A DNA stretch of 51,930 nucleotides from an uncultured bacterium (GCA_937876125.1 CALEHF010000226.1:1-51930), one strand, 5' to 3'. Numbered from the stretch's first letter, positions 13,316-47,090 are shown. Translations and numbers: made by a program. Notes: generated by a model from the sequence alone, not told the origin.

Positions 13316-14356
13316 ATGCTGCGAATGATGCAATGGATTGTGGGAGCGGTCGCACTATTTTTCGCGACGGCGAGCCCAGTCCACGCCGACTTCGATTACA
13401 CCGACTTCAGCTCCCTTGCCGGGCTGACGCTTGTACAGGACGCGTCACCGTCGGGTCCCTTCGTCAACTTGACCTCTCAGGTGTTGAGCCAAAAGGGCGC
13501 GCTTTGGACCGACACCCCCCAGCCGATCTCGGCGGGATTCGATACCACGTTCACCATCGAGCACGCCCTCGCTTCCGGAGGGGCGGACGGCTCCGCCTTC
13601 GTGATTCAGAACGGGGGCGCGACTGCACTCGGGAACCACGCGGCGGCGCTCGGGTACGGTGGATTCCTCACGACTCCCAACGAGGGGATTCCGTCGAGCG
13701 TGGCCATCGAGTTCGACGACTTCTCGAACACGAACTTCAACGATCCATCCTCGAATCACCTGAGCGTGCAGACCCGCGGAGCGCTCCCCAACTCGAGTGA
13801 CCATCAGTTCTCGCTCGGCTCCACCAGTGCCATCGCGCCGATCGCCGGCGTCCATACCGCGCGCGTTGTGTACCTCCCCGGCTCTCCCGGCACCTTGAAC
13901 GTCTACTTCGACGACTTGGTGACCCCGGTGCTCTCGGTGGCGATCGACTTGGTCGCGGAGGTGAGCGGAACCAGCGCGTATCTCGGCTTCACCGCGTCAA
14001 CCGGCGGAGAGGCGGAGGCGCACCGGGTGCGCGCGTGGAGTTTGACGCTCTCTGGAGGCAATCCGACCGTGCAGTTCAGGCGTGGCGACTGCAATGACGA
14101 CGCGTCGGCGAACATCGCCGATGCAATCTTCCTCTTGTCGGTTCTCTTTCCGGCGCAGGGCAATCCACCGCCGGTCCCGTGTCAGGATTCCTGTGACGGG
14201 AACGACGACGGAAACCTGAACATTGCGGATGCGATCGCGATCCTGAATTCGCTCTTCAGTCCGATCCCCGCGCCTCTCCCGCCCCCCTTCGGCGCGTGCG
14301 GCAACGATCCTTCGATCGGGGACACGCTCATCTGTCCTGCTCAGAACGGTTGTTAG
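13316..14356 (+). CDS. secreted L-type (legume-like) lectin domain protein with C-terminal dockerin-like 4-Cys module
   Basis: Start placed at ATG 13316 (MLRMMQWIVGAVALFFATASPVHA signal peptide). Lectin-like core (GGADGSAFVIQN...GYGG...SVAIEFDDF.N). Tail RRGDCNDDASANIADAIFLL...CDGNDDGNLNIADAIAILNSLF...CGNDPSIGDTLICPAQNGC. Confidence 0.75.
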   Translation: MLRMMQWIVGAVALFFATASPVHADFDYTDFSSLAGLTLVQDASPSGPFVNLTSQVLSQKGALWTDTPQPISAGFDTTFTIEHALASGGADGSAFVIQNGGATALGNHAAALGYGGFLTTPNEGIPSSVAIEFDDFSNTNFNDPSSNHLSVQTRGALPNSSDHQFSLGSTSAIAPIAGVHTARVVYLPGSPGTLNVYFDDLVTPVLSVAIDLVAEVSGTSAYLGFTASTGGEAEAHRVRAWSLTLSGGNPTVQFRRGDCNDDASANIADAIFLLSVLFPAQGNPPPVPCQDSCDGNDDGNLNIADAIAILNSLFSPIPAPLPPPFGACGNDPSIGDTLICPAQNGC

Positions 14357-14422
14357 TACACGCCCGAGCCACCTCCGGAAGATCGCTCATTTGCCGCTTC
14401 GGCCCCAAAGAGAGCAATCCCC

Positions 14423-14677
14423 ATGAACGATAAACTCAAACTCACCGACGAGCGCCGAGCCGCCCTTCTCCGCGCCCTGCAATCTCACTTCTTCGATCAG
14501 CACAGCGAGGAGATCGGGGAATTGAAGGCGGAGCTGTTGATCGACTTCTTTCTCGAGAGGCTCGGGCCGCCGGTCTACAACCAGGCGATCGGGGACGCGC
14601 GAAAGTACATCCAGGAGCGACTCGACGATCTCGCGGATGAAGTCATCCACTTCGACGGCGACTCCTTCGAAAGCTAG
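14423..14677 (+). CDS. DUF2164 family protein
   Basis: 84 aa. The pattern L..L..HF.....[14 protein letters not shown]...LGP.VYNQAI.DA is characteristic of DUF2164. Confidence 0.75.
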
Positions 14678-14811
14678 CCCCGGCTAAACTCGAAGTACGA
14701 CCAGTCCAACAGACTGCTAAGACTCGCCCCCGCCGCCTCTTGTACGGTTCCGTAGCATGCGCTCCTGACATCGGCGAAACTTCTCGCTCCTCTGGCGCGA
14801 AAGTTGGTTCG

Positions 14812-15609
14812 ATGCGCACCTACCTCGACCTGCTGCAGACACTCCTCGACACCGGAGTCCAGAAGTCCGACCGCACCGGCACCGGCACCCGCGCCCTGTT
14901 CGGCGCTCAGCTGCGGTTCGACCTCGCCGCCGGCCTCCCCGTCGTCACCACCAAGAAGATCCACCTGAAGTCGGTAATCCACGAGCTTCTCTGGTTCATC
15001 CGCGGAGAGACCAACGTGCGCTCACTGCAGGCGGTGGGCGTCAAGATCTGGGACGAGTGGGCCGATCCCGAGACCGGCGAGCTCGGTCCGGTCTACGGCG
15101 CGCAGTGGCGCCGCTGGCCGAACCCCGACGGCGGGACCATCGACCAGCTCGCAGGGGTCATCGATCAGATCCGCACCAACCCCGACTCGCGCCGCCTCAT
15201 CGTCAGCGCCTGGAACCCCGCTCAGGTCGATGCGATGAAGCTGCCGCCGTGTCACACGATGTTCCAGTTCCAAGTGATGCAGGGGCGGCTCTCCTGCCAG
15301 CTCTATCAGCGGAGCGCCGACATTTTCCTCGGAGTGCCGTTCAACATCGCGAGTTACGCGATCCTCACGCATCTCGTCGCCCAGGTGACCGGGCTCGAAG
15401 TGGGAGAGTTCATTCACACGTTTGGGGATGTGCACCTCTACGAGAATCACGTCGAGGCGGCGAAGACGCAGCTCTCTCGTGAGCCGTATCCGCTTCCCAC
15501 CTTCCGGTTGGGGAGAGAATTCACGGATATCGACGATGTGCACTACGAGGACATCTGCGTCGACGACTATCAGTACCACCCGGCGATCCGCGCACCGGTG
15601 GCCGTCTAG
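14812..15609 (+). CDS. thyA: thymidylate synthase
   Basis: MRTYLDLLQ...DRTGTGT...LWFIRGETN...AWNP..VD.M.LPPCH..FQF...[22 protein letters not shown]. Start moved to ATG 14812 (264-aa product). Confidence 0.97.
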
Positions 15610-16106
15610 TGCGTATCACCCTGATCGCCGCGATCGGCCCCGACCGGGTCATCGGACGCGACGGAGACCTTCCCTGGCGTCTCCCCGCCGATCTCGCGCA
15701 CTTCAAGCGCATGACCCTTGGACATACGGTCTTGATGGGGAGGAAGACGTTCGATTCGATCGGGCGTCCTCTGCCAAAGCGGCGGAACCTCGTCTTGACC
15801 GGTTCTCCCGACCGATTGCCGGAAGGAGTCCACGGAGTTGCGAGTGTGGCGGAGGCGATCGAGTGCGCGGCGGATGAGACCGAGCTTTTCGTCATCGGTG
15901 GCGCGGAAGTGTACCGGCTCTTCCTCGACTCCGCCGACCGGCTCGTGATCACCGAGGTCGAGGGCGCCTTCACGGGGGATACGTTCTTTCCCGAGATCGA
16001 CCGCATGAACTTTCGTGAAGTCTCGCGCATTGCGTTCGAGCCCGACGAGAAGAACCGATATCATTACTCCTTCGTCACCTGGGAGCGCGTGCCCACGCCC
16101 GCTTGA
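15609..16106 (+). CDS. folA: dihydrofolate reductase
   Basis: ITLIAAIG.DRVIGRDGDLPWRLPADLAHFKR.T.GHTVLMGRKTF.SIGRPLP.R.N.VLT. The GTG start overlaps the thyA stop (TAGTG). Confidence 0.95.
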   Translation: MRITLIAAIGPDRVIGRDGDLPWRLPADLAHFKRMTLGHTVLMGRKTFDSIGRPLPKRRNLVLTGSPDRLPEGVHGVASVAEAIECAADETELFVIGGAEVYRLFLDSADRLVITEVEGAFTGDTFFPEIDRMNFREVSRIAFEPDEKNRYHYSFVTWERVPTPA

Positions 16107-16991: not shown

Positions 16992-18095
16992 CTACTCCGT
17001 TCCCGAGCTCTCGCCTGCCGCGTTCTCTGCACGCGGCCCGCATTCGTCGAGATAGAGCGTGCGGTCATAGATCCACGCTTCGCCGATCTCCCCGCGGAAG
17101 TAGTAGCTCTCCTTCTTCGGACTTCCATCCGCTCGGTGCACTGCACCGTTCGAGGCGGTGTGCCCGAAACGCAGCGGGGCGCGTTGGGTGTAGATGATGG
17201 GAGTCGAGGTGACCGCGGTTCCTTCACACTCACCGTCGAGGTAGAGCTGAATCGCCCGCCCATCCCAGCGCGCGACCGCTGTGTGCCACCGGCCATCATT
17301 GACGACCGTCTCCCCCGTGATCTCGGTGTGCTGGGGGCCGAGGAAGAAGCGCAACCGCCCGCCGTGTGTTTCGGTGTCGACCTGGAGCCAGCCGCCGTCG
17401 GTGCCGGAGCCGGCGTAGTGCGTGCTCCACAGCATCATTTCCAAAGGCTCCGTGCACGAGGTGCGAAAGGTGACGACCACCGTGAATGGAGTGTCGGTCG
17501 GGAAGAGCGGGCTCCCCGAGTCAAACCGATGCTCGAAGAAGCTGTGCTCGAGGAGGCCGGGGGAGCGAAGGTCGGAACCGACGAAGCGGCCGGTACGGTC
17601 GTGGCCGGAGAGGTCGGCGATCTTCCCCGCGAAGTCGTTCGGCGTGTAGCCGCGAAAGTCGTGGTGGAGGATGGGGCCAGTACGGGGAACGGGAAGTGTG
17701 GTCGCGGTGATCTCGATGCTCGTGACGTGCTCGAACGCGACGTCGAGCGTACCGATGATCGTCGCGAGATCGAGCGCTGGGTCGCGGATGGTCCCGGTAA
17801 CTCGATCCCCCGAGGAGAGCGCCGCGGTGAAGACTCTGCCCTCGTTGCCGACCCGATCCAAACGACCGAGGAGGGAGAGCGGAACGGTGAGCTCGCCGAG
17901 CACGCCGTCGATCTTCCAAGCCCCTTGGCTGGTGGTTTCATGGAGAATCGTCCCGTGGAGGATCGACCCGTCGACGAGGGCAACGATCGCGGTCGAGACT
18001 CCCCCCATCTCGTCCTCGGGAACCCCCGCGGCGGACACGGACATGCCGAGGAGAAGCAGCGACGAGGCAAGGGGGAGCGCCTGGAGTGGGGTCAT
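16992..18095 (-). CDS. secreted LamG-like (concanavalin A-like lectin/glucanase) domain protein
   Basis: Signal peptide MTPLQALPLASSLLLLGMSVSAAG. C-terminal LamG pattern (GRWHTAVARWDGRAIQLYLDG...YFRGEIGEAWIYDRTL). Confidence 0.7.
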   Translation of the reverse strand: MTPLQALPLASSLLLLGMSVSAAGVPEDEMGGVSTAIVALVDGSILHGTILHETTSQGAWKIDGVLGELTVPLSLLGRLDRVGNEGRVFTAALSSGDRVTGTIRDPALDLATIIGTLDVAFEHVTSIEITATTLPVPRTGPILHHDFRGYTPNDFAGKIADLSGHDRTGRFVGSDLRSPGLLEHSFFEHRFDSGSPLFPTDTPFTVVVTFRTSCTEPLEMMLWSTHYAGSGTDGGWLQVDTETHGGRLRFFLGPQHTEITGETVVNDGRWHTAVARWDGRAIQLYLDGECEGTAVTSTPIIYTQRAPLRFGHTASNGAVHRADGSPKKESYYFRGEIGEAWIYDRTLYLDECGPRAENAAGESSGTE

Positions 18096-20390: not shown

Positions 20391-21242
20391 TCAGCACCCC
20401 GACTGACCACACCCGAGCGGGGTCCCGTTGACGAACCCGCAGGCGGGGAACGGCGCCGGCGGCGGCGCGCTGCCTCCGAAGCCGTAGTTGAGGAGGTAGA
20501 TCGGATCCGCGAGGTCGAGCACACCATCGCCGTTCGTGTCGGCGGCGGACTCGCACGCGATCGTCCCACCGCTGAAGAGCCCGCCGAGGATGGTGATCGC
20601 ATCCCCGATCGCGATCACCGAACCGTCGCCGTCGGCATCGCCGCGGAGGAAGAACACATCGATCGGCACGAACTGAATCGTGGGGAAGTCCCAGACCAGC
20701 GGGAACGATGTCGCTCCGATGACCATGAAGTCGTCAATGGGTGGGCTCACCCCCGCCGGGTTCGTCGGCGAGAAGCTGCCGATTCCTCCGCCCGAGTTTC
20801 CGATCCATGCGGCAGGGGTGGTGGCGATCGTCAGCGTGGCGACCGCGGTGGGTGCGCCGAACGCGATCGTCTCTGCCCCGACGATACTGAAAATAGCGCC
20901 GGCAGTCCCGCCATCGGGAAATGGGTCGATACTTCCGAGACCCGGTCCGCTCCCCCCGTTGAGATCGAGGAGCGGCCCACCGAACTCGAGGGCGACGCTC
21001 TGGAAGATCGCCGAGTCGTGGGAGTACGAGAACGAGAAGCCCGCGGTCTGAGCGATGGGGATCCCCCCAATAATGTCTTGGACGATCCGCAGGGTGGTCG
21101 TCGCAGACCCGATCCCGGTCGCAGGGTCGTAGGGGATGACCACCGGGTCGATCGAGATCGTGAAGGTCTGAGCGAGCGCGTGGATCGGAATGACGATCGA
21201 GCACAACGCGATGAGGGCTTGCGCGAACAAACGCAGCATCAT
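20391..21242 (-). CDS. secreted cohesin-like domain protein with C-terminal dockerin-like 4-Cys module
   Basis: Signal peptide MMLRLFAQALIALCSIVIPIHALA. Cohesin-like beta-sandwich pattern (AGFSFSYSHDSAIFQSVALEFGGPL). Tail FLRGDADGDGSVIAIGDAITILGGLF...AADTNGDGVLDLADPIYLLNYGF...CGFVNGTPLGCGQSGC. Confidence 0.65.
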   Translation of the reverse strand: MMLRLFAQALIALCSIVIPIHALAQTFTISIDPVVIPYDPATGIGSATTTLRIVQDIIGGIPIAQTAGFSFSYSHDSAIFQSVALEFGGPLLDLNGGSGPGLGSIDPFPDGGTAGAIFSIVGAETIAFGAPTAVATLTIATTPAAWIGNSGGGIGSFSPTNPAGVSPPIDDFMVIGATSFPLVWDFPTIQFVPIDVFFLRGDADGDGSVIAIGDAITILGGLFSGGTIACESAADTNGDGVLDLADPIYLLNYGFGGSAPPPAPFPACGFVNGTPLGCGQSGC

Positions 21243-21338: not shown

Positions 21339-22778
21339 CTACGGACAGATCGAAAAGCTGTCGCACTCCAAGTGATCCGCGGTCGGGTCGATCCCGCAGA
21401 TCCCCGCGGGCTGAAGGATCGGTCCGCCACCGCTGAACAAGACCCCCAAAATGAAAATGGGGTCGGCGATGTTCACCAGGCCGTCGTCGTTCCCATCGCT
21501 CGACTCTCGGCAAGGGAAGGGGTTCTGTCCGGCGATGATAAATGCACGCTGCAGAGTGAGGATCGGATCGGCGATGTCGATCGCACCATCCTGGTTCTCG
21601 TCGCCGCGGATGAACTGAGGGCCGGGGCCACGGTTGAGGAGGATGAGCGCTGTGTGCTCGACCTCGTTGGTGACGACGAGATCGGTCAGGCCGTCGACGT
21701 CGAAGTCCGCCGCGCTGATCGCCCACGGGCCATTTTCAGTCGGGACCGAGCCCGTCATCTGGAACCCACCGAGGCCATCCCCTTCGAGAATCACGATCTG
21801 ATCCTGGAAGGGGCGCGTGATCACGAGGTCGAGTGCCGATGAGCCGAGCAGGTCGGTCGCGATCACGGACCGCGGTCCCCCGCCTGTCATCACCACGGTC
21901 GGAGTTCCGTACAGGCGGCCGGGGAGCCCGGGGATCACCTGCGCGGCATCGACGTGGGTCACGACCAGATCGAGGACACCGTTGCCGTTCAGGTCACTGG
22001 CGATCACCGACGAGGCAGTCGGGAAACCAGTGATCTGCGTCGCTGCCTCGAAGGTGCCGTTTCCGAGTCCGTAGTGGATCGAGAGCGTGCCCCCGAACGA
22101 GTTCACACCGACGAGATCGTCGTGGTTGTCGCCGTCGAGATCGGCCGCGATCACTGCAGTCGGTCCGTCCCCGGCGGGAATCGTGACGTGCGGCGCGAAG
22201 GTCCCGTCCCCGTTTCCGAAGATCAACGAGAGCGTGTCCTCATCGCGGTTCGCGGTGACGAAGTCGATGAACCCGTCCTCGTTCCAATCACCCGAATCGA
22301 TGTGAAGCGGATAGAGGCCGACGGGGATCGCGAGGGCGCTCGACCAGCCGCCGAGCCCGTCTCCGAGAAAGCGAGTCGCCTCGTTATTCTCATGACCCAC
22401 GACCGCGGCATCGATCAGACCATCGCCGTTGAAATCGCCGAGAGTCAGCGAGATCGGGTGTGCGACACTGAAGCCAGGAACCGGAGTGATCGATCCCGGG
22501 ACGAACACCCCCCCGCCGAGTGAGGTGAGCACGCGCAGATCATGGGTGTGATGGTTCGCGAAGATGATATCGAGATCGCCATCGCCATCGAGATCGGCCT
22601 GAGTGACTTCGGCGGGGCAGAGCCCGACCGGGATGGACGTCGCCTCGAACTGGATGGGCGCCGGCGTGATTTGCGCCTTCGCTTCGGGGAGCGGTGCCCC
22701 GAACGCGAGAAACAGGAGCGCGAGAAACAAGAGCGCGAACACCAAAGCGGGAGAGACACGGATCGTGGCTGCGGTCAT
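21339..22778 (-). CDS. secreted FG-GAP/VCBS repeat protein with C-terminal dockerin-like 4-Cys module
   Basis: Signal peptide. Repeated DLDGDGDLD / DFNGDGLID / DWNEDGFID / DLDGDNHDD / DLNGNGVLD loops. Tail FIRGDENQDGAIDIADPILTL...SDGNDDGLVNIADPIFILGVLF...CGIDPTADHLECDSFSICP. Confidence 0.8.
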   Translation of the reverse strand: MTAATIRVSPALVFALLFLALLFLAFGAPLPEAKAQITPAPIQFEATSIPVGLCPAEVTQADLDGDGDLDIIFANHHTHDLRVLTSLGGGVFVPGSITPVPGFSVAHPISLTLGDFNGDGLIDAAVVGHENNEATRFLGDGLGGWSSALAIPVGLYPLHIDSGDWNEDGFIDFVTANRDEDTLSLIFGNGDGTFAPHVTIPAGDGPTAVIAADLDGDNHDDLVGVNSFGGTLSIHYGLGNGTFEAATQITGFPTASSVIASDLNGNGVLDLVVTHVDAAQVIPGLPGRLYGTPTVVMTGGGPRSVIATDLLGSSALDLVITRPFQDQIVILEGDGLGGFQMTGSVPTENGPWAISAADFDVDGLTDLVVTNEVEHTALILLNRGPGPQFIRGDENQDGAIDIADPILTLQRAFIIAGQNPFPCRESSDGNDDGLVNIADPIFILGVLFSGGGPILQPAGICGIDPTADHLECDSFSICP

Positions 22779-22798: not shown

Positions 22799-22994
22799 CT
22801 ACGGGCAGGCCGAGTAACTAGCGCACCCGAAGTTTGGCTCGTAGGTCGGGTCGGGCCCGCAGGCCCCCGCCGGCTCGGGGATGTCAGAGCTTCGTACACC
22901 CCTTGGGCCCGGCCGGGGAGAGCCACGCCACCAGTGTGAGGCAGAGTGCCGACACGGTACAGATGGTCGCGAAGAGCGGAGTTCTGCGCTGCAT
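22799..22994 (-). pseudogene. mini-ORF: signal peptide plus isolated 4-Cys tail of the dockerin-like module, interrupted by a +1 frame offset at the TGA 22884-22886
   Basis: GAGGAGG is 6 nt before ATG 22994. MQRRTPLFATICTVSALCLTLVAWLSPAGPKGCTKL-TGA. The +1 frame continues DIPEPAGACGPDPTYEPNFGCASYSACP-TAG(22799-22801), which matches the tails CG.DP....L.C.....CP of the five full modules. Confidence 0.35.
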
Positions 22995-39441: not shown

Positions 39442-39511
39442 GCGGGATTCACTCTCTCCGAGGCGCCTCTCCCCGGGGGAGCGGGTTGGGGTGGCGGTGA
39501 GGGGCCTAATT

Positions 39512-39547: not shown

Positions 39548-39660
39548 GGGAGGTGGAGTTCCGTCCCTGGAGAATCGGCTGCTTCTCCGCCCCAGGTGGC
39601 CGGGAGCCCGGAACAGAGCGGTGGGAGTGATCTGCGGGAGCAATTCAGGACAAAAAGGTC

Positions 39661-39666
39661 TATAAT
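39661..39666 (+). promoter_or_regulatory. perfect TATAAT -10 hexamer upstream of the cytochrome gene
   Basis: TATAAT lies 66 nt before ATG 39732 in a GC-rich context. The -35 at 17-nt spacing (GAGCAA) is weak. Confidence 0.3.
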
Positions 39667-39731
39667 GGCGGGGTGCGCCTTTCCCCGTTTGGGGAGGGAG
39701 TTCGTCCCACTGTAGAGTCGGAGGTCACTCG

Positions 39732-41654
39732 ATGGTCCGCAGCTCAGTACTCATCCTTCCCTGCCTTCTAGGCCTCATCGCCACCTTTCTTCCCACAGGA
39801 CTCCTCGCACAGGTCACAGGTGTCGTTCGCGATGCCGGCTCGAACGCCCCGATCGAGGGTGCCCTCGTCTCGGTCCAAGCGACTGGAGTCCGAGTTCTGA
39901 CCGCCAGTGACGGCAGCTATCTGATCCCCGGCATCGCGGGCGAGGTGGTGATCGTCGCGGCGGTGCCCGGCGCCTACCACGCATCTCAAACCGTGCTCGC
40001 GCCGGCCACGGCAGTCGACCTCTCGGTGGAGATGGTGCCGATCGAAAGTGACCCCGCGTACGTTTGGCTCGGTCCCGACGATTGTGGGACGTGCCACCCC
40101 GATCAGTACGCCGAGTGGAACGGGTCCCCGATGCAGAAAGCGGGACTGAACACCTGGGTGTATGACATCTACGATGGCAGCGGCACTCCGGGGGGCCTGG
40201 GTGGCTTCGTTTACGAACGCGACTCCGTGTTCGCTGCGAGCAATCCGCATTCGGAGTGCGCCGCCTGTCACCAACCCGAGCCTTGGGTCGAGCAATCCCC
40301 CATCCCCCTGCAACCTCTGGACGTAGTCACCGACGGGATGGCGCACGGAGTCTCGTGCGAGGTGTGTCACAAGCTCGCAGCCGTGGACGCATCGAAGATC
40401 AACTTCCCCGGCATCGTTCCCGAATCGACCACGTTCATCCGCCCCTCGGGGGGAGCGCAAGTGGAGTTCGGAGTGCTTGGCGATTCGAACTTCGAGTTCC
40501 CGGGATTGATGCGCCCTGCGTTCAATCCCCAGTTGGTAGCGGAGGTGTGCGGAACCTGCCACCAGGACAAGAACGACCCCGACGAGGATGGCGACTTCGA
40601 AGAGGCGAACGGGGTGATCTCGGAGCCGACCTATCTCGAGTGGGTCGTTTCACCCTACGGCGACATCAACTCCCCTCTCTATCAAAGCTGTGTCGATTGC
40701 CACATGCCTCCTTCGGGGGCGGACCAGGTGAGCGTCTTTCTGTTCCCGCCGCTCCTGCGCGATCCGGCGACGATCCGGTCCCACGAGGTCCGTGGAACCA
40801 CGCCCCAATTCCTCGAGAACGCCGTCACCCTGGAGATCGCGACCGCAGTGGTCGGAAACGAACTCGTGGCCAGCGTGTCGATCACCAATGACCAGACGGG
40901 GCATCACGTTCCGACCGGAGTGACGATCCGAAACATGATCTTGGTAGTTGAGGCGACCAGGGTCGATGACGGCGCTCTCCTGCTCCACACCGGAACAGAA
41001 ACGGTGCACGCGCTCGGTGGAGTGGGGAGTCCGAGCCAAGGCTACTACGCGGGCCTTCCCGGAAAGCTGTTCGGGAAGGTGAACATTGCGGCGAGCGGGC
41101 AAAGCCCGACTTTCTTCACCGATGCCGTCTCGATCGTCTTCGACAATCGCATTCCGGCGCTCGAAACCGATACGACCTCGTACCCCTTCTTGCTGCCGAG
41201 TGGTGGCGGAACGCTGGAGGTCACGGCGCGGCTGATCTATCGCCGCTCCTGGCGGGCGCTGACCGATGCGAAAGGGTGGACCACGGATGGCCACGGCAAT
41301 CCCCTCGCCGACGTGCAAGGTCCTTACTTCGGTCATCTGATGGAGGAGAAGGCTTCGTCGATCGTTCTCCCATTCACCACGCCTGAATTCCGCCGCGGTG
41401 ATGCGAACGGCGATGCGGCGGTGGACCTCGCCGACGCGGTCTCCGTTCTCGAGTATCTCTTCATCGACGGAGATGCTCCGTTGTGCTTCGAAGCGGCGGA
41501 CGGGAACGACGATGCGATTCTCGATCTCGCCGACCCGATCCGAGTGTTGATGTACCTGTTCGGAGGCACGCCCCTGTCGGCGCCAGGAGCACTGGCGTGT
41601 GGACCCGATGCCGCGGGCTCCTTCAGCTCTTGCGCTTACTCCGGGTGTCCCTGA
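39732..41654 (+). CDS. secreted pentahaem c-type cytochrome (CarboxypepD_reg-like N-domain, multihaem core) with C-terminal dockerin-like 4-Cys module
   Basis: Signal peptide. Five CxxCH motifs (CGTCH, CAACH, CEVCH, CGTCH, CVDCH). Tail FRRGDANGDAAVDLADAVSVLEYLF...AADGNDDAILDLADPIRVLMYLF...CGPDAAGSFSSCAYSGCP. Confidence 0.85.
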   Translation: MVRSSVLILPCLLGLIATFLPTGLLAQVTGVVRDAGSNAPIEGALVSVQATGVRVLTASDGSYLIPGIAGEVVIVAAVPGAYHASQTVLAPATAVDLSVEMVPIESDPAYVWLGPDDCGTCHPDQYAEWNGSPMQKAGLNTWVYDIYDGSGTPGGLGGFVYERDSVFAASNPHSECAACHQPEPWVEQSPIPLQPLDVVTDGMAHGVSCEVCHKLAAVDASKINFPGIVPESTTFIRPSGGAQVEFGVLGDSNFEFPGLMRPAFNPQLVAEVCGTCHQDKNDPDEDGDFEEANGVISEPTYLEWVVSPYGDINSPLYQSCVDCHMPPSGADQVSVFLFPPLLRDPATIRSHEVRGTTPQFLENAVTLEIATAVVGNELVASVSITNDQTGHHVPTGVTIRNMILVVEATRVDDGALLLHTGTETVHALGGVGSPSQGYYAGLPGKLFGKVNIAASGQSPTFFTDAVSIVFDNRIPALETDTTSYPFLLPSGGGTLEVTARLIYRRSWRALTDAKGWTTDGHGNPLADVQGPYFGHLMEEKASSIVLPFTTPEFRRGDANGDAAVDLADAVSVLEYLFIDGDAPLCFEAADGNDDAILDLADPIRVLMYLFGGTPLSAPGALACGPDAAGSFSSCAYSGCP

Positions 41655-43765
41655 TGGGCTCCCGGCGCGAGCCGGACGCACCGCATGTGACCGTGGACCA
41701 TTCCGGCCCGCGGGTCGTGCCCCAGCCGCGACGCCCAGTCACGGGGCCGCCGCGGCCGGGGGGGCCCGCCCGGTGGCGCGCGGGGACGCTCGCGAGCGTG
41801 TACATCCTGATGGCGATCCACATCGTGCATTGGAAAGTCGCCGGAAAGACGCTCGCTCCCCTCGAACTGAACGAGGTGATGCACACCCTCGAACTCGGTG
41901 TGGTGACCGCCGGGTTCATCTTCATGAGCGTGGCGCTGCTTTCGGTCGTCATCTTCGGGCGGTTCTTCTGCTCGTGGGGATGCCACATTCTCGCCCTTGA
42001 AGATCTCTGCGCGTGGATCATGGCGAAGCTCCACATTCGACCGCGCCCGTTGCGATCACGACTGCTCCTCTGGGTCCCGCCGATAGCCTTCTCCTACATG
42101 TTCATCTGGCCACAACTCGCGCGGTGGGCCGTGCGGACTTGGCCGTCGGTCGAGAGCGTGGTCGGCGCGCGCCCCGAGTTCGTGCTCCGGATCGCAAAAG
42201 ACGGTGAGGGGTGGGCAAGCTTCGTCACCAGCGACTACTGGCGCAATCTCCCCAGCTGGCCGATCGCGGCGCTCACCTTCGCGGTGTGCGGTTTCGTGAT
42301 CGTCTACCTGCTCGGCTCACGTTCCTTCTGCCACTACGGCTGCCCCTACGGCGTCGTCTTCGCGCTCGCCGATCGAGTCGCGCCCGGCAAGATCAAGTTA
42401 AAGGGCACTTGCGTCCAGTGTGCGCAGTGCACCGCGGCATGCTCTTCGGGAATCGCCGTGCACAAGGAGATCGCAAAGTTCGGCCGCGTGGTGAGCCCTT
42501 CCTGCTTGAAGGATCTCGACTGTGTTCACAGTTGTCCTGAAGAAGCGATCGGGTTTGGATTCACGCGCCCGGGTGGAGTCGCATCACTCGGCAAGAATCG
42601 GGTGCGGAAACGCTTTGATTTCACTTTGCGCGAAGAGCTTCTGATGGCGCTCATGGTCATCTTGACGCTGCCGGTCTATCGAGGGCTCTACGATCGAATT
42701 CCGTTCCTTCTCACTCTCGCGCTCGGTGCGATTCACGGGTACTTGGCCGTGATGGCGGTACGCCTGCTCAAGAAGCAACGACTGAGCCTACGTGGCACCA
42801 CACTCAAGCGCGATGGGCAGCTGACAGTCGCCGGTGGCTTCTTCGCGGGCATCCTGATCGCGGTGGGGGCGCTCTTCTGTCACAGCGGGGCAATTCGGGC
42901 GAGCGAGCACCTCGGCGAGTCTGCGTTCGCACAGGCGCGGAGCCACTGGCTGCGCGGAGCAGAGGCGCCCGATCCGTTGGTCGATCGCGCGCGTCGTCAC
43001 CTCGAACGACGCCAGAACTGGGGGATGATCGACAGCATGCCCCTCGAGCGCATGATCGCGGAGCTCGAGAGGCACCGAGGAGAAGTCGAAAGCGCCGAGG
43101 TGCGGCTCGGGAAGATCCTTCGGGTGAACCCCGCTGACTGGGACACACGCCTGCAGCTCGGGCGGTCCTTCGCTCTTCGAGGCGCCCACGACGAGGCTCG
43201 TCACGCTCTCGAACCGATCGTGCGCAAGGGCTCCGAAAGCGGCCATGCTCGGGGCGAGGCGCGTCGCCTGCTCGCTTCGATGCACCTGGTCGAAACGGAT
43301 AGCTCGGCGGCAGAAGCGGAGCTCTTGCTCTCGATCGAAGAGTCTCCGGACGAAGTGCTGAGCCATGCTGCGCTCGCCGAACTTTGGGCAAAGCGGGGAG
43401 AATTGGTGCGGGCAGAAGCTGTTCTCCGCGAAGCGATCGTCGCTGCGCCCCAGTGGCCTGAAGCGCATCGTCGGCTCGGCCTGGTGCTTCTCGCCCGTGG
43501 CGTCGTGCCCGAGGCTCTCGCCGCATTGCGCGGAGCCATCGATCGTGCGCCCCTCGACCCGGGGCTCGAGGTCGATCTCGGTCGTGCGCTCGCAGGAACC
43601 GGTGATTTGTCGGGGGCGGAGCGCTCCTTCCGCCGAGCACTCGAGCACGACCCTGAGTTTCTCCTCGCTCACTTCTGCCTCGGGCACCTGCTCACTGATC
43701 TTGGCCGGGCCGACGAAGCGCGGCCTTACCTGCACGCGGTGAATGCGTCGCAGCCGGTTCCATAA
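41654..43765 (+). CDS. NapH/MauN-like membrane polyferredoxin (4Fe-4S) fused to a C-terminal TPR domain
   Basis: Start placed at ATG 41654, overlapping the cytochrome stop (TGATG). RFFCSWGCH, CHYGCPYG, CVQCAQCTAACSSG, CLKDLDCVHSCPEEAI. C-terminal TPR-like helices. Confidence 0.75.
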   Translation: MGSRREPDAPHVTVDHSGPRVVPQPRRPVTGPPRPGGPARWRAGTLASVYILMAIHIVHWKVAGKTLAPLELNEVMHTLELGVVTAGFIFMSVALLSVVIFGRFFCSWGCHILALEDLCAWIMAKLHIRPRPLRSRLLLWVPPIAFSYMFIWPQLARWAVRTWPSVESVVGARPEFVLRIAKDGEGWASFVTSDYWRNLPSWPIAALTFAVCGFVIVYLLGSRSFCHYGCPYGVVFALADRVAPGKIKLKGTCVQCAQCTAACSSGIAVHKEIAKFGRVVSPSCLKDLDCVHSCPEEAIGFGFTRPGGVASLGKNRVRKRFDFTLREELLMALMVILTLPVYRGLYDRIPFLLTLALGAIHGYLAVMAVRLLKKQRLSLRGTTLKRDGQLTVAGGFFAGILIAVGALFCHSGAIRASEHLGESAFAQARSHWLRGAEAPDPLVDRARRHLERRQNWGMIDSMPLERMIAELERHRGEVESAEVRLGKILRVNPADWDTRLQLGRSFALRGAHDEARHALEPIVRKGSESGHARGEARRLLASMHLVETDSSAAEAELLLSIEESPDEVLSHAALAELWAKRGELVRAEAVLREAIVAAPQWPEAHRRLGLVLLARGVVPEALAALRGAIDRAPLDPGLEVDLGRALAGTGDLSGAERSFRRALEHDPEFLLAHFCLGHLLTDLGRADEARPYLHAVNASQPVP

Positions 43766-43813: not shown

Positions 43814-45244
43814 ATGAAATTTCCGAGAGTCATTCAAGGGGGCATGGGCGTGGGAGTCTCCGGCTGGCAACTCGCTCGCGCGACTTCGAAGCGCGGTCAG
43901 ATCGGCGTCGTCTCTGGCACTGCGCTCGACATCGTCCTCGCCCGGCGCTTACAGCTCGGCGATCCGGGAGGTCACATGCGACGTGCCCTTTCTACGTTTC
44001 CCGATCGGGGTCTGGCGCATCGAGTTTTGGATCGCTACTTCATCGAGGGAGGCAAAGAGTCGGGGCGCCCGTTCTCGGCGAAACCGATGATCGGTCACGA
44101 GTTGAGTCGTCAACTCGAAGAGCTCATGGTCGCGGCGAATTTCGTCGAGGTGACCCTTGCGAAGGAGGGTCACGATGGTTGGGTCGGAATCAACTACCTC
44201 CACAAGATCCAGGCTCCGCTCCTGCCATCTCCGTACGGGGCGATGCTCGCGGGTGTCGACATCGTCATCGTCGGCGCCGGGATTCCACTCGACATCCCGC
44301 AGATCCTCGACAGCCTCACCCGGGGCGAGCCCGCGAGTCTACAGTTGCACGTCGCCGGCTCGACGAGCGGAGCCGTTCACCGGATGACCTTCGATCCGAG
44401 CCGGCTGTTCGCCGAGCCTCTCGCACCGCCCCCGCGTCCTCGATTCTTCCCCATCGTCTCTTCCGTAACCCTCGCCTCGCTCTTGCTCAAGAAGTGTCAG
44501 GGGAAAGTGGACGGCTGGATCGTCGAGGGACCGACGGCGGGGGGGCACAACGCGCCGCCGAGGGGATCCTCTCCTCTCAGCCCCGCCGGGGAGCCGGTCT
44601 ATGGTCCCCGAGATGCGATCGATCTGCCGGCGATCGCCGCGCTCGGGCTCCCTTTCTGGCTGGCAGGATCCTACGGGAGCCGGGAGAAACTCGGGGAAGC
44701 GCTCGCGGCGGGCGCGGCGGGGATCCAGGTCGGGACGCTCTTTGCTTTCTGCGAAGAGTCGGGGCTGACGGCGGATCTCAAACGGAAGTTCATCGAGCGC
44801 TGCCGAGAATCTGCGCCGCAAGTGCACACCGATCCGGTCGCCTCACCGACGGGGTTCCCGTTCAAGGTTCCTGCGATGCCGGGAACGCTCTCCGATCCCG
44901 AGGTGTATGCGAAGCGGAAGCGCCGTTGCGACTTGGGTTATCTCCGGGAGGCGTACACACTCCCCGATGGAACTCTCGGGTGGCGCTGTGCGGCGGAGAA
45001 TCCCCCGACCTACGTATTCAAGGGGGGGCGCATCGAGGATACGGTCGGTCGCAAGTGTCTCTGCAATGGCCTGCTGGCGAACATCGGTCTGGCCCAGGTC
45101 CGAGACGGCAAAGAAGAACCGCCGCTTCTGACGTGTGGCGATGATTTGTCGGCGATCGTCCCCTTGTTGAGTGCGGGAAAGGACTCCTATGGGGCAGGGG
45201 ATGTGATAGATGCGCTGCTCGCCGGTGATGTCGCGCACAAGTGA
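43814..45244 (+). CDS. nitronate monooxygenase (NMO / 2-nitropropane dioxygenase-like) family flavoprotein
   Basis: N-terminal VIQGGMGVGVS...QIGVVSG. TIM-barrel FMN pattern (GAGIP..., IVEGPTAGGH, WLAGSYG). Start at ATG 43814 or GTG 43805. Confidence 0.72.
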   Translation: MKFPRVIQGGMGVGVSGWQLARATSKRGQIGVVSGTALDIVLARRLQLGDPGGHMRRALSTFPDRGLAHRVLDRYFIEGGKESGRPFSAKPMIGHELSRQLEELMVAANFVEVTLAKEGHDGWVGINYLHKIQAPLLPSPYGAMLAGVDIVIVGAGIPLDIPQILDSLTRGEPASLQLHVAGSTSGAVHRMTFDPSRLFAEPLAPPPRPRFFPIVSSVTLASLLLKKCQGKVDGWIVEGPTAGGHNAPPRGSSPLSPAGEPVYGPRDAIDLPAIAALGLPFWLAGSYGSREKLGEALAAGAAGIQVGTLFAFCEESGLTADLKRKFIERCRESAPQVHTDPVASPTGFPFKVPAMPGTLSDPEVYAKRKRRCDLGYLREAYTLPDGTLGWRCAAENPPTYVFKGGRIEDTVGRKCLCNGLLANIGLAQVRDGKEEPPLLTCGDDLSAIVPLLSAGKDSYGAGDVIDALLAGDVAHK

Positions 45245-45329
45245 CCTCAAGTTTCCGCTTCGATCCTGCCGATACTTCTCTGCTAGGTCCGCTGCTCAGC
45301 AACCCTCACCGGACAGCATAGGAGTCGTC

Positions 45330-45797
45330 GTGGGCATGAAGAACATCGCAATTTTCGGGTGTCTTGTCGTCGCAACCGTCGTCAGTTTCACTCTCCTCAG
45401 ACCGAGCGGAACCGCTGACGCCGCACCGCGGGTGTCGGGAAGCATGAAGGTCGAACTGATCGTCGAGGTGGGGAAGGGAAGCTCGATCGCAGCGATTTCG
45501 AAGGCGATCTCGAACATCGGATCGAGCGGCCAGGACGGAGTCCGGGTCGATTCCTTTTTCGATATCACGTATTGCGCGAACATCGGCTCGAGTGGCCTCG
45601 ACGGGTACCAAGTCGATTCGTTCTTCGACATCTTCTACAGCGTCGCACCGGACCTCGACACCGAGATGGTGGCGTTGTCGTTGAAGTGCACGCTCGACAA
45701 CCCGAACGATCCGGGCTTCGCCATCGACGTGGTGAAAGCTGCCGCAGTTCGAGCGGGGGGGACGGTCTACTACGGACACGTGACGGTCCTCAAGTAG
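45330..45797 (+). CDS. hypothetical secreted protein with a 21-aa tandem duplication
   Basis: AGGAG is 5 nt before GTG 45330 (ATG at 45336). Signal peptide. SNIGSSGQDGVRVDSFFDITY / ANIGSSGLDGYQVDSFFDIFY. Confidence 0.6.
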   Translation: MGMKNIAIFGCLVVATVVSFTLLRPSGTADAAPRVSGSMKVELIVEVGKGSSIAAISKAISNIGSSGQDGVRVDSFFDITYCANIGSSGLDGYQVDSFFDIFYSVAPDLDTEMVALSLKCTLDNPNDPGFAIDVVKAAAVRAGGTVYYGHVTVLK

Positions 45798-45832
45798 GAC
45801 CGAACGCGACGCCCCGACGCGCGGGCGACGAG

Positions 45833-45875
45833 AAAAAAATACACGGGCCAGGAGCCGCGCTCCTGGCCCGTTTTG
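45833..45875. terminator. bidirectional intrinsic terminator
   Basis: AAAAAAATAC-ACGGGCCAGGAGC-CGC-GCTCCTGGCCCGT-TTTT, between convergent genes. Confidence 0.8.
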
Positions 45876-45922
45876 TCATGAAAGTGATCCGCTCTCGCTC
45901 GCCGGCCGCCGGCTCCTCGGGT

Positions 45923-46768
45923 TCAGGGGCAGAACGGGAAGACGAGGCACTCGAGGGTTGGATTGGGATCGGACCCGCAATTGGGGAACGGCGGGTTGGG
46001 GGGGGGGCCCCCCATGAAGAAGAAGTTCAGGATCAGGACCGGGTCTCCCAGATCGATGGTGCCATCATCGGTGGCATCGAGAGCCAAGAGGCAGTTCACC
46101 GGCTGCGAGAGGAACAGAAATGACAGGGCCAAGATCGGATCGATGAGCCCGACGGTACCGTCGCCATTCGCGTCACCCCGCACGAAGGTACTGAGGATCT
46201 GGATCGAGCCATTCACGAGTGTCAGATCCGGGCCGACGATCGCTTCGGAGATGTTACTCACGGCGCCTGTGGGGATCGCGAAGACTTCCGTACTCGCAAA
46301 GGTGCCAGCAGGCGCGTTTGGAATCATCAAGGTATTCGAAAAGGTGAGGGGTGTGTTGATGCCTCCGGTTGCCAGGGTGTCGTAGCAGAGCTTGAAGATT
46401 TCAAGGTCTGTGCCGACGGGGATCGTCATGAGGACAGGGTCGAAGTCGACGATCAATCCCGCGATCACCCCCTCGCTTCCGATCTGAGTGGTCTGGAGGG
46501 AGACCCCGGCCGGTACATCCACCCCCAGACTGACGGAACAGGCGGAGACCTCCGCATTGTTGTGCGCCACCGCGATCCCCACGGAAGTCACACCCAGATG
46601 GTCTGCGGAGGTGAGAAACACTGACACCTCGACTCCAGCCGTCGTCTGATTCGCGAGCACCATGTCCTCAATGTCGAGGGTCGCGGTCGCCGCCGCGCTC
46701 ACTCCCGCCAAGAGGAGGACAAGGGTCAAGGCGATGATCGACACGGACGTAGACTTGAAACCTATCAC
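45923..46768 (-). CDS. secreted cohesin-like domain protein with C-terminal dockerin-like 4-Cys module
   Basis: Start at GTG 46768 (GAGGAGGA upstream) or ATG 46792. Signal peptide IIALTLVLLLAGVSAAA. Cohesin-like GVTSVGIAVAHNNAEVSACSVSLG. Tail FVRGDANGDGTVGLIDPILALSFLF...DATDDGTIDLGDPVLILNFFF...CGSDPNPTLECLVFPFCP. Confidence 0.65.
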   Translation of the reverse strand: MIGFKSTSVSIIALTLVLLLAGVSAAATATLDIEDMVLANQTTAGVEVSVFLTSADHLGVTSVGIAVAHNNAEVSACSVSLGVDVPAGVSLQTTQIGSEGVIAGLIVDFDPVLMTIPVGTDLEIFKLCYDTLATGGINTPLTFSNTLMIPNAPAGTFASTEVFAIPTGAVSNISEAIVGPDLTLVNGSIQILSTFVRGDANGDGTVGLIDPILALSFLFLSQPVNCLLALDATDDGTIDLGDPVLILNFFFMGGPPPNPPFPNCGSDPNPTLECLVFPFCP

Positions 46769-47090
46769 GGGTCCTCCTCTGGAGATGCACACGAGAACTA
46801 GAGAGTGAGAGTCGACAGTTGGGCTGCGGGAACTCGAATGGCGAGGATGGAGTGCGATCGGGCTCCCGGGAGCTGACAGGTCAGCAAATGACCCGGATTG
46901 GAATAGTTCGATCGAGCCAGACGCATCCTCGTCGACGGTGCGCGCATAACGGCAGCCATCCTCCCGAATCGAGATAAGCGAGCACGGAAACTAGCGGGAA
47001 TCGTGCAGGCTCAGGGTACTCAAGAGTGCACCAGGATTGCAAGTGAGCCGTTCCCTCCCTCCGGCGTCCCAAAGGGTCAAGGAAGAGCAA

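What the first reader, a model, noticed from the sequence alone, without database searches (positions are those of the whole stretch)
13316..46792. Family of roughly 90-aa C-terminal dockerin-like double Ca-loop / 4-Cys modules on five different secreted proteins, with cohesin-like partners
Five genes end with the same module. They are 13316-14356 (lectin), 20391-21242 (cohesin-like), 21339-22778 (FG-GAP), 39732-41654 (pentahaem cytochrome) and 45923-46768 (cohesin-like). The module reads F.RGD.N.DG...I.D.I..L..LF - Cys - ..D.NDDG...IADPI..L..LF.GG..P..P...CG.DP....L.C.....C(P)-stop. The two DxNxDG loops with flanking amphipathic helices look like dockerin/EF-hand pairs. The four conserved cysteines and the strictly C-terminal CP end are not part of classical dockerins. 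Two carriers have N-domains that read like cohesin beta-sandwiches, so cohesin and dockerin-like parts sit on the same chain, which would allow chaining. The cargo domains are a lectin, a propeller and a multihaem cytochrome, not glycoside hydrolases. That argues for a non-cellulosomal surface-assembly or anchoring system.
Basis: partly seen in the sequence, partly recalled or inferred. Interest (0 to 1): 0.75.

Follow-up and report, generated by a model that had tools for sequence, protein, structure and literature searches.

The report
Disulfide-stapled dockerins with cohesin partners
Five secreted proteins of an uncultured marine planctomycete end in the same calcium-binding "plug" (a dockerin with an extra cysteine-clamped tail) and two of them also carry the matching "socket" (a cohesin), so this looks like a non-cellulose protein-assembly kit that is very common, but untested, in this phylum.

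Summary
Five signal-peptide-bearing ORFs end in one ~90-aa module with 18 invariant columns. A sixth, decayed copy lies at 22802-22885. Residues 1-60 are a dockerin: the tail profile matches solved dockerins (E 1.2e-6), and relatives pass Pfam Dockerin_1. The last ~30 residues (PxPFPxCGxDPTxDxLxC…CP) match no Pfam, NCBIfam or PDB entry. Cysteine co-variation in 361 modules implies C1-C3 and C2-C4 disulfides, plus an optional third pair that the lectin tail has. The two unannotated N-domains are divergent cohesins: a held-out family profile scores them 27 and 23 bits (shuffles ≤12.9), and that family matches solved cohesins at 1.7e-11. AlphaFold2 models failed, so the fold is unconfirmed. The module family is very large (22,598 clusters at E≤1e-10) and almost entirely from Planctomycetota MAGs. 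It also occurs N-terminally, internally and in tandem, so it is a domain rather than a C-terminal sorting signal. Cargo in 78 relatives includes propellers, P-domains, phosphatases and peptidases; no glycoside-hydrolase family was among the 25 commonest families listed. The best explanation is a Ca-dependent cohesin-dockerin assembly of secreted proteins, of the hypothesised "planctosome" kind. I class it as a new variant of a known kind. Binding and localisation are untested.

The parts
13316..14356 (+). Secreted legume-lectin protein (346 aa) with a C-terminal module
   Evidence: PF00139 1.3e-19. The N-terminus MLRMMQWIVGAVALFFATASPVHA reads as a signal peptide (by eye, inference).
14075..14353 (+). 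Dockerin plus Cys extension, 6-Cys variant (RGDCN ... DSCDGNDDG)
   Evidence: Tail HMM 1.2e-39. It carries the optional co-varying Cys pair.
20391..21242 (-). cohA: signal peptide + cohesin-like domain + module (283 aa)
   Evidence: ORF; four orthologues aligned.
20673..21170 (-). Divergent cohesin domain of cohA
   Evidence: No Pfam hit on its own. Scores 27.2 bits against a held-out cohesin-family profile, versus <=12.9 for 4000 shuffles. hhalign gives 67% for the single sequence and 98.0% for the subfamily.
20394..20651 (-). Dockerin plus Cys extension of cohA (ends GC)
   Evidence: Tail HMM 2.3e-35. Loop 1 has a one-residue insertion that is conserved in the orthologues.
21339..22778 (-). 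FG-GAP propeller protein (479 aa) with module, 96 bp upstream of cohA on the same strand
   Evidence: PF13517 1.5e-40. A weak Dockerin_1 hit at residues 392-439 (10.5 bits).
21342..21614 (-). Dockerin plus Cys extension (ends CP)
   Evidence: Tail HMM 2.5e-44.
22802..22885 (-). Orphan Cys extension (...ACGPDPTYEPNFGCASYSACP*), probably a gene remnant
   Evidence: Tail HMM positions 72-99, E 5.8e-4; extension HMM 3.7e-6. No dockerin repeats in any frame upstream. A signal-peptide-like start lies in another frame.
39732..41654 (+). CarboxypepD_reg + pentahaem c-type cytochrome (640 aa) with module
   Evidence: Pfam hits; five CxxCH motifs at residues 118, 176, 209, 273 and 320.
41388..41651 (+). 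Dockerin plus Cys extension (ends CP)
   Evidence: Tail HMM 3.7e-41.
45923..46792 (-). cohB: signal peptide + cohesin-like domain + module (281-289 aa)
   Evidence: ORF. The identical 281-aa product is called on 13 public contigs.
46191..46720 (-). Divergent cohesin domain of cohB
   Evidence: Found at 3.7e-13 by a profile seeded from cohA. Scores 22.7 bits against the held-out profile. hhalign gives 33% for the single sequence and 98.9% for the subfamily.
45926..46186 (-). Dockerin plus Cys extension (ends CP)
   Evidence: Tail HMM 5e-39.

Best explanation
The ~90-aa module is a folded domain. It consists of a type-I-like dockerin, made of two duplicated Ca2+-binding loop-helix segments, and a ~30-residue proline-rich arm. 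Two disulfides clamp the arm back onto the dockerin: C1 in the inter-repeat linker pairs with C3, and C2 of the CG motif pairs with the terminal C4. Some copies, including the lectin tail, have a third disulfide between the two Ca loops. After Sec export into an oxidising compartment, the dockerin plugs in a Ca-dependent way into cohesin domains such as those of cohA and cohB. In this lineage nearly every cohesin-bearing protein also carries a dockerin. The parts can therefore chain into multi-protein assemblies that hold lectins, integrin-like propellers, a pentahaem cytochrome and, in relatives, peptidases, phosphatases and P-domains together outside the cytoplasm. Shown here: homology of the module to dockerins, homology of the N-domains to cohesins, the co-occurrence of the two, the Cys co-variation, and the non-cellulosomal cargo. 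Inferred: the disulfide connectivity, the actual cohesin-dockerin binding and its partner specificity, and the location (surface, periplasm or secreted).
For: Dockerin homology. The tail profile matches PDB dockerins (2y3n_B 1.2e-6, plus 5m2s, 4uyp, 1daq and others) over positions 2-60. Relatives reach PF00404 scores of 47-149 bits against a cut-off of 22.9.

Cohesin homology. The domain family seeded from cohA matches solved cohesins at 7.4e-10, and 13 of 43 members match PF00963. A profile that excludes every sequence reachable directly from cohA or cohB still scores them 27.2 and 22.7 bits, against <=12.9 for 4000 shuffles and no other ORF segment of the window above that level. A 22-sequence sample of that held-out set (A5) matches cohesins at 1.7e-11. 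hhalign of the subfamily profiles gives 98.0% and 98.9%.

Co-occurrence. In 80 loci chosen only for the module, 35 of 37 cohesin-like ORFs also carry it, and 35 of 130 module ORFs carry 1-3 cohesins.

Domain rather than signal. The module occurs in 2-7 copies per protein, at N-terminal, internal and tandem positions.

Disulfides. C2 and C4 are both present in 276 modules, both absent in 78 and discordant in 7. The optional pair is 57 / 282 / 22.

Other points. All five window proteins start with signal-peptide-like sequences (by eye). Cargo in 78 relatives includes FG-GAP, P_proprotein, LamG, Metallophos, HYR, LTD, and peptidases C25 and S8, with no glycoside-hydrolase family among the 25 commonest families listed. 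The FG-GAP-dockerin gene and cohA are adjacent on the same strand.
Against: None of the five window tails reaches the Pfam Dockerin_1 threshold on its own; the best is 10.5 bits. Neither N-domain hits Pfam Cohesin on its own. Single-sequence hhalign support for cohB is weak, at 33%. Both AlphaFold2 models were unusable, with pLDDT 31-33, so no fold or interface has been seen. The cohesin family was collected by iteration from cohA in a database pre-selected for the module, which inflates the co-occurrence figures. No dockerin-free anchoring scaffoldin, SLH domain or lipobox was found, so how or whether the assemblies attach to the cell is unknown. Many non-cellulosomal dockerins have no demonstrated partner.
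Confidence: 0.62

Rival explanations
1. The module is a C-terminal sorting, secretion or attachment signal, analogous to a T9SS CTD, PEP-CTERM/exosortase or sortase signal. A dedicated machine would recognise it, and the conserved terminal Cys-Pro would be the processing or attachment site.
For: Most copies sit at the very C-terminus: 99 of 125 end within 1 residue of the stop. Of 265 terminal copies, 136 end exactly in CP. The carriers are diverse secreted proteins.
Against: The module has no hydrophobic or basic tail. It is homologous to a folded binding domain. In the 150 top-scoring (2-7-copy) proteins, 119 copies are N-terminal and 133 internal. In tandem arrays '...CP' is followed directly by the next 'FxRGD', so CP is a domain boundary and not a free end. 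No NCBIfam sorting-signal model matches. Pfam scans of the five carriers and 20 further window ORFs found no sortase, exosortase or T9SS component.
Confidence: 0.1
2. The module is a stand-alone Ca2+-stabilised, disulfide-locked domain. It would bind something other than cohesin, such as a polysaccharide, an S-layer or outer-membrane component or a mineral surface, or it would simply stabilise secreted proteins in seawater. The cohesin-like domains would then have another role.
For: Modules outnumber cohesins: 5 to 2 in the window and about 130 to 37 ORFs in the loci. The extra Cys-clamped arm is absent from every dockerin of known function and could form a new binding surface. Non-cellulosomal dockerins without known partners are common (Peer et al. 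2009, as cited in PMC6461901 and PMC9012536).
Against: The cohesin-like domains are almost exclusively linked to the module within the same polypeptides. The dockerin Ca-loop and helix motifs are preserved in both repeats. An excess of dockerins over cohesins is also normal in cellulosomes (established knowledge).
Confidence: 0.2
3. The similarity is compositional or due to chance, for example EF-hand-like Asp/Gly-rich low complexity in a high-GC genome.
For: Weak sub-threshold EF-hand hits.
Against: In-window E-values are 1e-36 to 1e-44 and the remaining six-frame segments are free of hits below E = 1, apart from the orphan remnant. The public library holds 22,598 clusters at E<=1e-10. The Cys residues co-vary.
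Confidence: 0.01

Closest known systems
Cellulosomal type-I dockerin / cohesin pair (Clostridium/Acetivibrio thermocellum, Pseudobacteroides cellulosolvens, Ruminococcus flavefaciens; Pfam PF00404 / PF00963)
   Same: There are two duplicated 12-residue Ca loops (D-x-N/D-x-D-G-...-D), each followed by a helix, and the profile matches solved dockerins at 1.2e-6. The partner-type domains match solved cohesins at about 1e-10. Some proteins carry both, as adaptor scaffoldins such as ScaB do.
   Different: An extra ~30-residue Pro-rich arm with the CGxDPTxDxLxC...C(P) motif is present, along with 4 (sometimes 6) conserved Cys. Classical dockerins lack both. The window copies fall below the Pfam thresholds. 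Cargo includes lectins, propellers, a cytochrome, peptidases and phosphatases; no glycoside-hydrolase family appeared among those listed. Nearly every cohesin protein also has a dockerin, and no SLH- or sortase-anchored scaffoldin was seen. The host is a Gram-negative-type planctomycete.
'Planctosome' hypothesis for freshwater Planctomycetes (Nemodlikiaceae), Andrei et al. 2019, ISME J, PMC6461901
   Same: It describes cohesin/dockerin modules in Planctomycetes with no link to cellulose. Its proposed architecture includes an adaptor with signal peptide, dockerin, HYR and cohesin, together with LTD, P-domains, TSP3 repeats and peptidases. The same accessory domains turn up among relatives of this module.
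   Different: That model is purely in silico and makes no mention of a Cys-clamped extension in the passages I retrieved by a term search on 'dockerin' and 'cohesin'. The window is from marine or aquatic metagenomes, and its cargo (lectin, FG-GAP, pentahaem cytochrome) differs. I could not compare the sequences directly.
Non-cellulosomal cohesin/dockerin modules in ANME archaea and others (Chadwick et al. 2022, PMC9012536; Peer et al. 2009)
   Same: These are abundant dockerin- and cohesin-bearing proteins in organisms that do not degrade cellulose. Scaffoldin-like proteins with one dockerin and several cohesins occur. An association with extracellular electron-transfer organisms has been discussed.
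   Different: They are archaeal, and no Cys extension is reported in the passages read. Here a multihaem cytochrome itself carries the dockerin.
EF-hand pairs / thrombospondin type-3 Ca-binding repeats
   Same: Asp-rich 12-residue Ca loops are present, and in TSP3 repeats disulfides sit next to the loops.
   Different: Loop position 12 is Asp, as in dockerins, and not the bidentate Glu of EF-hands. Pfam EF-hand scores are 11-13 bits against cut-offs of about 25. The helix pattern and the PDB profile hits are those of dockerins.

Membership tests
Dockerin type I (PF00404) | Two tandem ~22-residue segments, each a 12-residue Ca loop with D1, N/D3, D5 and D12 followed by an amphipathic helix | tested here: met
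   Read directly from alignment A1: RGDANGDGxVxIADAIxxLxxLF and DGNDDGxLDLADPIxILNxLF. All ten loops keep D1, D5 and D12. Position 3 is N or D in nine loops and T in cohB loop 2. cohA loop 1 has a one-residue insertion.
Dockerin type I (PF00404) | Each sequence scores above Pfam's gathering threshold (22.9 bits) | tested here: not met
   Only the FG-GAP tail gives any hit (10.5 bits, E 0.76). Relatives of the same module family do pass: P0126 148.8, P0127 98.3, P0129 47.8 and P0170 46.9 bits.
Dockerin type I (PF00404) | Profile-level homology to structurally solved dockerins | tested here: met
   Profile A1 against PDB gives 2y3n_B at 1.2e-6. The hits with E < 0.02 are dockerins, dockerin-bearing enzymes/scaffoldins, or a serine protease with dockerin-type repeats, and they cover positions 1-61 only.
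Dockerin type I (PF00404) | Ca-dependent binding to a cohesin | not testable with these tools
   Needs biochemistry or complex prediction.
Cohesin (PF00963) | Each sequence matches the Pfam Cohesin profile | tested here: not met
   Both N-domains give 0 families at E<=10, and phmmer against PDB finds nothing relevant.
Cohesin (PF00963) | Membership of a sequence family that is homologous to solved cohesins | tested here: met
   The held-out profile scores cohA 27.2 and cohB 22.7 bits, with shuffles <=12.9. A 22-sequence sample of that held-out set (A5) matches 3l8q_A at 1.7e-11, and 20 of its 21 PDB hits are cohesins. 13 of 43 family members match PF00963. hhalign of the subfamily profiles gives 98.0% and 98.9%. 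The single-sequence values are weaker, at 67% and 33%.
Cohesin (PF00963) | Nine-stranded beta-sandwich (jelly-roll) fold | tested here: inconclusive
   AF2 models had mean pLDDT of 31.4 and 32.7. They were mostly beta but unusable, so no fold search was run.
C-terminal sorting signals (PEP-CTERM, LPXTG, T9SS CTD and similar) | Obligatory C-terminal position, plus either a hydrophobic helix with a basic tail or a match to a CTD model | tested here: not met
   There is no hydrophobic tail and no NCBIfam hit. The module also occurs N-terminally, internally and in tandem.
EF-hand (PF00036 / PF13202 / PF13499) | Helix-loop-helix with Glu at loop position 12, scoring above the Pfam threshold | tested here: not met
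   Scores are 10.8-13.2 bits against cut-offs of about 25. Position 12 is Asp in all ten loops.
'Planctosome' (hypothetical system, PMC6461901) | Planctomycete cohesin/dockerin proteins combined with LTD anchor, P-domains, HYR, TSP3 repeats and peptidase cargo | tested here: inconclusive
   Relatives of the module carry P_proprotein (6), LTD (2), HYR (2), and peptidases C25 and S8 and TSP3_bac. None of these is present in the window's five proteins. The sequences from the paper were not available for comparison.

The most novel reading that the evidence does not exclude
The Cys-clamped dockerin, together with its divergent cohesins, would be the building block of a phylum-wide, self-chaining extracytoplasmic protein network in Planctomycetota. 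Almost every 'socket' protein also has a 'plug', so the parts would polymerise into a lattice instead of hanging from a single anchored scaffoldin. The network would organise adhesins, hydrolases and even multihaem cytochromes, that is, redox wiring. The disulfide-stapled CGxDPTxDxLxC...CP arm would add a second, new binding or locking surface that sets specificity or makes the bond redox-sensitive.
Probability: 0.3. Interest if true: 0.75.

Novelty: new variant of a known kind. Interest (0 to 1): 0.55.

Why it matters
Cohesin-dockerin pairs are among the strongest non-covalent protein interactions known and are widely used as bioengineering parts. Nearly all of what is known about them comes from cellulosomes of Gram-positive anaerobes. 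This case is a very large family (22,598 clusters at 50% identity with E<=1e-10) of a structurally distinct, disulfide-stapled dockerin. It is paired with cohesins that lie below the reach of the current Pfam model, in a phylum whose cell-surface biology is poorly understood. If binding is confirmed, three things follow. The in-silico 'planctosome' idea would gain a concrete, testable molecular basis. It would explain how marine planctomycetes organise lectins, propellers, hydrolases and a multihaem cytochrome outside the cytoplasm. It would also supply oxidation-stable orthogonal cohesin-dockerin pairs for synthetic biology. In addition, Pfam and NCBIfam could gain a dedicated model for the extended dockerin and for these divergent cohesins.

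Tried and rejected
1. AlphaFold2 on cohA (4-sequence alignment, full length) and on cohB (single sequence) gave pLDDT of 31.4 and 32.7.

2. A direct search for homologues of the two N-domains in the 5.8-billion-protein index found only 3 relatives for cohA and none for cohB. BLASTP of cohA against cohB found nothing.

3. NCBIfam has no model for the tails or the N-domains.

4. A profile of the extension alone, searched against PDB, gave only a chance 10-residue identity, 'CGFDPTADSL', in tyrosyl-tRNA synthetases (E ~0.1). I rejected this as coincidence.

5. An HMM of the extension alone, run on the local data, gave 480 hits. All lie inside full modules except one copy cut off by a locus end and the window's orphan. 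The extension is therefore not an independent module.

6. A cluster look-up of the window's proteins returned no names.

7. Literature searches ('dockerin' with Planctomycetes, Planctomycetota or multiheme cytochrome; 'planctosome') found the planctosome and ANME precedents. None of the titles, abstract openings or passages I read described the Cys extension. Subscription journals are not covered.

8. The sorting-signal idea was considered and disfavoured (see the rival explanations).

Full report
**Observation**

- 13316-14356(+) is a legume-type lectin (PF00139, 1.3e-19).
- 21339-22778(-) carries five FG-GAP repeats (PF13517, 1.5e-40).
- 39732-41654(+) has a CarboxypepD_reg domain and multihaem-cytochrome hits, with exactly five CxxCH motifs.
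- 20391-21242(-) ('cohA') and 45923-46792(-) ('cohB') have N-domains with no Pfam or NCBIfam hit.

All five begin with a hydrophobic, signal-peptide-like N-terminus (by eye). All five end in a module of 86-93 residues that aligns with 18 invariant columns, four of them Cys. An HMM of the five tails, run against all six-frame segments of the window, returns these five at 1e-36 to 2.5e-44. The only other hit below E = 1 is a 28-residue orphan of the Cys-rich end at 22802-22885(-).

**What the module is**

A profile of the tails matches solved dockerins. The best hit is 2y3n_B at 1.2e-6, followed by 5m2s, 4uyp, 1daq, 3ul4 and others. These matches cover only profile positions 1-61.

Both halves show the dockerin signature: a 12-residue loop with D1, N/D3, D5 and D12, followed by a helix (RGDANGDGxVxIADAIxxLxxLF and DGNDDGxLDLADPIxILNxLF). 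Position 12 is Asp, as in dockerins, and not the Glu of EF-hands. Taken singly, the window tails are below Pfam's Dockerin_1 threshold (best 10.5 bits). Relatives with the same module pass it clearly, at 47-149 bits.

The last ~30 residues have the consensus xPPxPFPxCGxDPTxDxLxCxxxxxCP. They have no counterpart in Pfam, NCBIfam or PDB. The only 'hit' is a coincidental decapeptide in TyrRS.

**Size, spread and position**

A full HMMER pass over 1.84 billion cluster representatives finds 38,152 proteins at E<=1e-3 and 22,598 at E<=1e-10. Many of them hold 2-7 copies.

In GTDB genomes at least 369 loci were confirmed with a single seed pattern. Of the best 80, 71 are labelled Planctomycetota, Planctomycetes or Planctomycetia, and a single MAG contributes up to 13 of them. 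The window itself recurs on 13 aquatic-metagenome contigs.

In those 80 loci, 99 of 125 modules end within one residue of the stop, and 10 lie 20 or more residues from it. In the multi-copy proteins the module is as often N-terminal (just after the signal peptide) or internal as it is C-terminal. In tandem arrays '...CP' abuts the next 'FxRGD'. So F...CP is a domain boundary, not a terminal signal.

**Cysteines**

I parsed 361 non-identical modules.
- The Cys of the 'CG' motif (C2) and the terminal Cys (C4) are both present in 276 modules, both absent in 78 and discordant in 7.
- C1 (in the inter-repeat linker) and C3 were required by the parsing pattern (361 of 625 non-identical modules fitted it); both are invariant in the 78-sequence alignment A4.
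- The simplest reading is two disulfides, C2-C4 and C1-C3, which clamp the C-terminal arm onto the dockerin core.
- A further pair, RGD-C-N in loop 1 and x-C-D-x-N-D-D-G before loop 2, is both present in 57, both absent in 282 and discordant in 22. The lectin tail in the window has this pair.

The connectivity is inferred from co-variation and has not been observed. It fits Sec-exported proteins in an oxidising compartment.

**The N-domains of cohA and cohB**

The direct evidence is weak. Neither domain hits Pfam, the two do not hit each other by BLASTP, and the big index holds only 3 homologues of cohA and none of cohB. Both AF2 models failed, with pLDDT 31-33.

The indirect evidence is good.
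- phmmer of cohA against the module-bearing proteins and loci fetched here finds its domain repeated 2-3 times in proteins of other MAGs.
- Four rounds of profile iteration collect 256 domain hits (E<=1e-3) in 154 proteins, including cohB at 3.7e-13.
- A 43-sequence sample of this family matches solved cohesins at 7.4e-10, and 13 members match PF00963 individually.
- As a control for circularity, I rebuilt the profile from 194 sequences that neither cohA nor cohB reaches directly. It scores cohA 27.2 bits and cohB 22.7 bits. The best of 4000 shuffles scores 12.9, and no other ORF segment of the window scores above that.
- A 22-sequence sample of this held-out set matches cohesins at 1.7e-11, and 20 of its 21 PDB hits are cohesins.
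- hhalign gives 67% for cohA and 33% for cohB as single sequences. With each one's direct relatives added, it gives 98.0% and 98.9%.

I conclude that both are divergent cohesins. I am more confident for cohA than for cohB, and the fold itself is unverified.

**Co-occurrence and cargo**

In the 80 loci, which were selected only for the module, 130 ORF segments carry the module and 37 carry a cohesin-like domain. Of those 37, 35 carry both. The two exceptions are cut by a locus end or overlap a module ORF in another frame. About a quarter of module proteins therefore also carry 1-3 cohesins, which matches 2 of 5 in the window. Proteins with up to 4 cohesins and 5 modules exist.

The cargo of 78 relatives includes:
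- FG-GAP (10)
- proprotein-convertase P-domain (6)
- LamG (3)
- metallophosphatase (3)
- HYR, LTD, arylsulfotransferase and nuclease (2 each)
- peptidases C25 and S8, CotH and a legume lectin (1 each)

No glycoside-hydrolase family appeared among the 25 commonest of the 35 families found.

In the window, the FG-GAP-dockerin gene lies 96 bp upstream of cohA on the same strand. The other carriers are scattered among housekeeping genes (thyA, folA, a POT transporter, NMO, leuS). This is a dispersed paralogous family, not an island.

**Mechanism**

The best-supported reading is a Ca-dependent cohesin-dockerin assembly of Sec-exported proteins. Proteins that carry both modules would allow chaining. 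The disulfide-clamped arm would stabilise the dockerin or extend its surface.

Shown:
- the homologies
- the co-occurrence
- the Cys co-variation
- the non-cellulosomal cargo

Inferred:
- binding and partner specificity
- disulfide connectivity
- location
- mode of anchoring (no SLH domain, lipobox or dockerin-free scaffoldin was seen)

The rivals are set out in their own section. They are a C-terminal sorting signal, disfavoured by the N-terminal, internal and tandem copies and by the absence of a hydrophobic tail, and a partner-less Ca or adhesion module.

**Comparison with what is known**

The module works like, and is homologous to, type-I dockerins, and the N-domains are homologous to cohesins. 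Non-cellulosomal cohesin-dockerin systems have been noted before (Peer et al. 2009). For Planctomycetes specifically, an in-silico 'planctosome' was proposed with the same accessory domains: LTD, P-domain, HYR, TSP3 and peptidases (PMC6461901). ANME archaea show a similar expansion (PMC9012536).

I found no description of three things:
- the conserved Cys-clamped extension
- the near-obligatory pairing of cohesin with dockerin on the same chain
- a multihaem cytochrome that carries a dockerin

The literature search covered open-access text only.

**Verdict**

I class it as a new variant of a known kind. Its interest is moderate. It is a very large and uncharacterised subfamily with a clear, testable hypothesis, but its core logic (cohesin-dockerin) is established, and the planctomycete context has been anticipated in silico.

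Noticed in passing
window 22799-23010 (-): An orphan Cys extension, '...PEPAGACGPDPTYEPNFGCASYSACP*', lies just upstream of the FG-GAP gene with no dockerin repeats in any frame. A signal-peptide-like start (MQRRTPLFATICTVSALCLTLVAWLSPAGP) lies upstream in a different frame. It is probably a decayed or frameshifted sixth family member. It is the only extension without a dockerin among 480 extension hits, apart from one copy cut off by a locus end.
   Followed up: partly
window 38102-43765: The dockerin-bearing pentahaem cytochrome is followed, with overlap, by a 760-aa ORF that has polyferredoxin-type 4Fe-4S domains (Fer4_5, Fer4_10), hydrophobic stretches that read as membrane-spanning (by eye), and C-terminal TPRs. 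It is preceded on the other strand by two ORFs (38836-39441 and 38102-39316) that read by eye like an ECF-sigma / anti-sigma pair; these were not scanned. This may be a regulated electron-transfer unit.
   Followed up: partly
window 31263-32459 (+): A secreted protein with many canonical EF-hands (EF-hand_1, 3e-31) separated by Gly/Arg-rich linkers. The tail HMM does not match it, so it is unrelated to the dockerin module.
   Followed up: partly
window 28765-31142 (+) and 50438-51358 (+): An FGE-sulfatase/EgtB-like gene overlaps a Methyltransf_33 (EgtD-like, 4.7e-108) gene, which looks like an ergothioneine biosynthesis pair. A second FGE-sulfatase-domain ORF lies at the end of the window.
   Followed up: no
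window 23977-27525 (-): A 1182-aa secreted-looking protein with no Pfam hit. It contains two CxxCH motifs (CASCH, CNVCH) and a thrombospondin-type-3-like Asp-rich stretch (DRDRDGVRDGDELTQGLDPQNPDTDGDGLWDGYDP).
   Followed up: no
window 20394-20651 (-) and alignment A2: The first Ca loop of the cohA dockerin has a one-residue insertion (DADGDGSVIAIGD, 13 residues instead of 12). The insertion is conserved in all four orthologues, so it is a subtype feature and not an error.
   Followed up: partly
window 8002-11415 (+), 11570-13192 (-), 16992-18095 (-), 33480-35381 (+): Four other adhesin-like ORFs (TPR+FG-GAP+ASPIC, DUF5122 propeller, LamG, FG-GAP; the DUF5122 and LamG proteins have signal-peptide-like N-termini by eye) lack the module. 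Not every protein of this kind in this genome is dockerin-tagged.
   Followed up: partly
window 45210-45797 (+): A small ORF between the NMO gene and cohB (called as 155 aa in public contigs) has an internal duplication, IGSSG.DG..VDSFFDI.Y, and no Pfam hit.
   Followed up: no
window 35484-38243 (-) and 250-1206 (-): A CHAT-domain protein (2.7e-18) and a MoxR-type AAA ATPase (AAA_3, 1.6e-62) are present in the window. I saw no link between them and the module family.
   Followed up: no
related proteins P0126, P0129; loci L027, L047, L048, L067, L075: A '2-Cys' subtype of the module lacks both C2 and C4 (xGxDPTxDxLxC, then ends or continues). In the proteins examined, all copies within one protein are of the same subtype. 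All copies in the window are 4-Cys, or 6-Cys in the lectin.
   Followed up: partly
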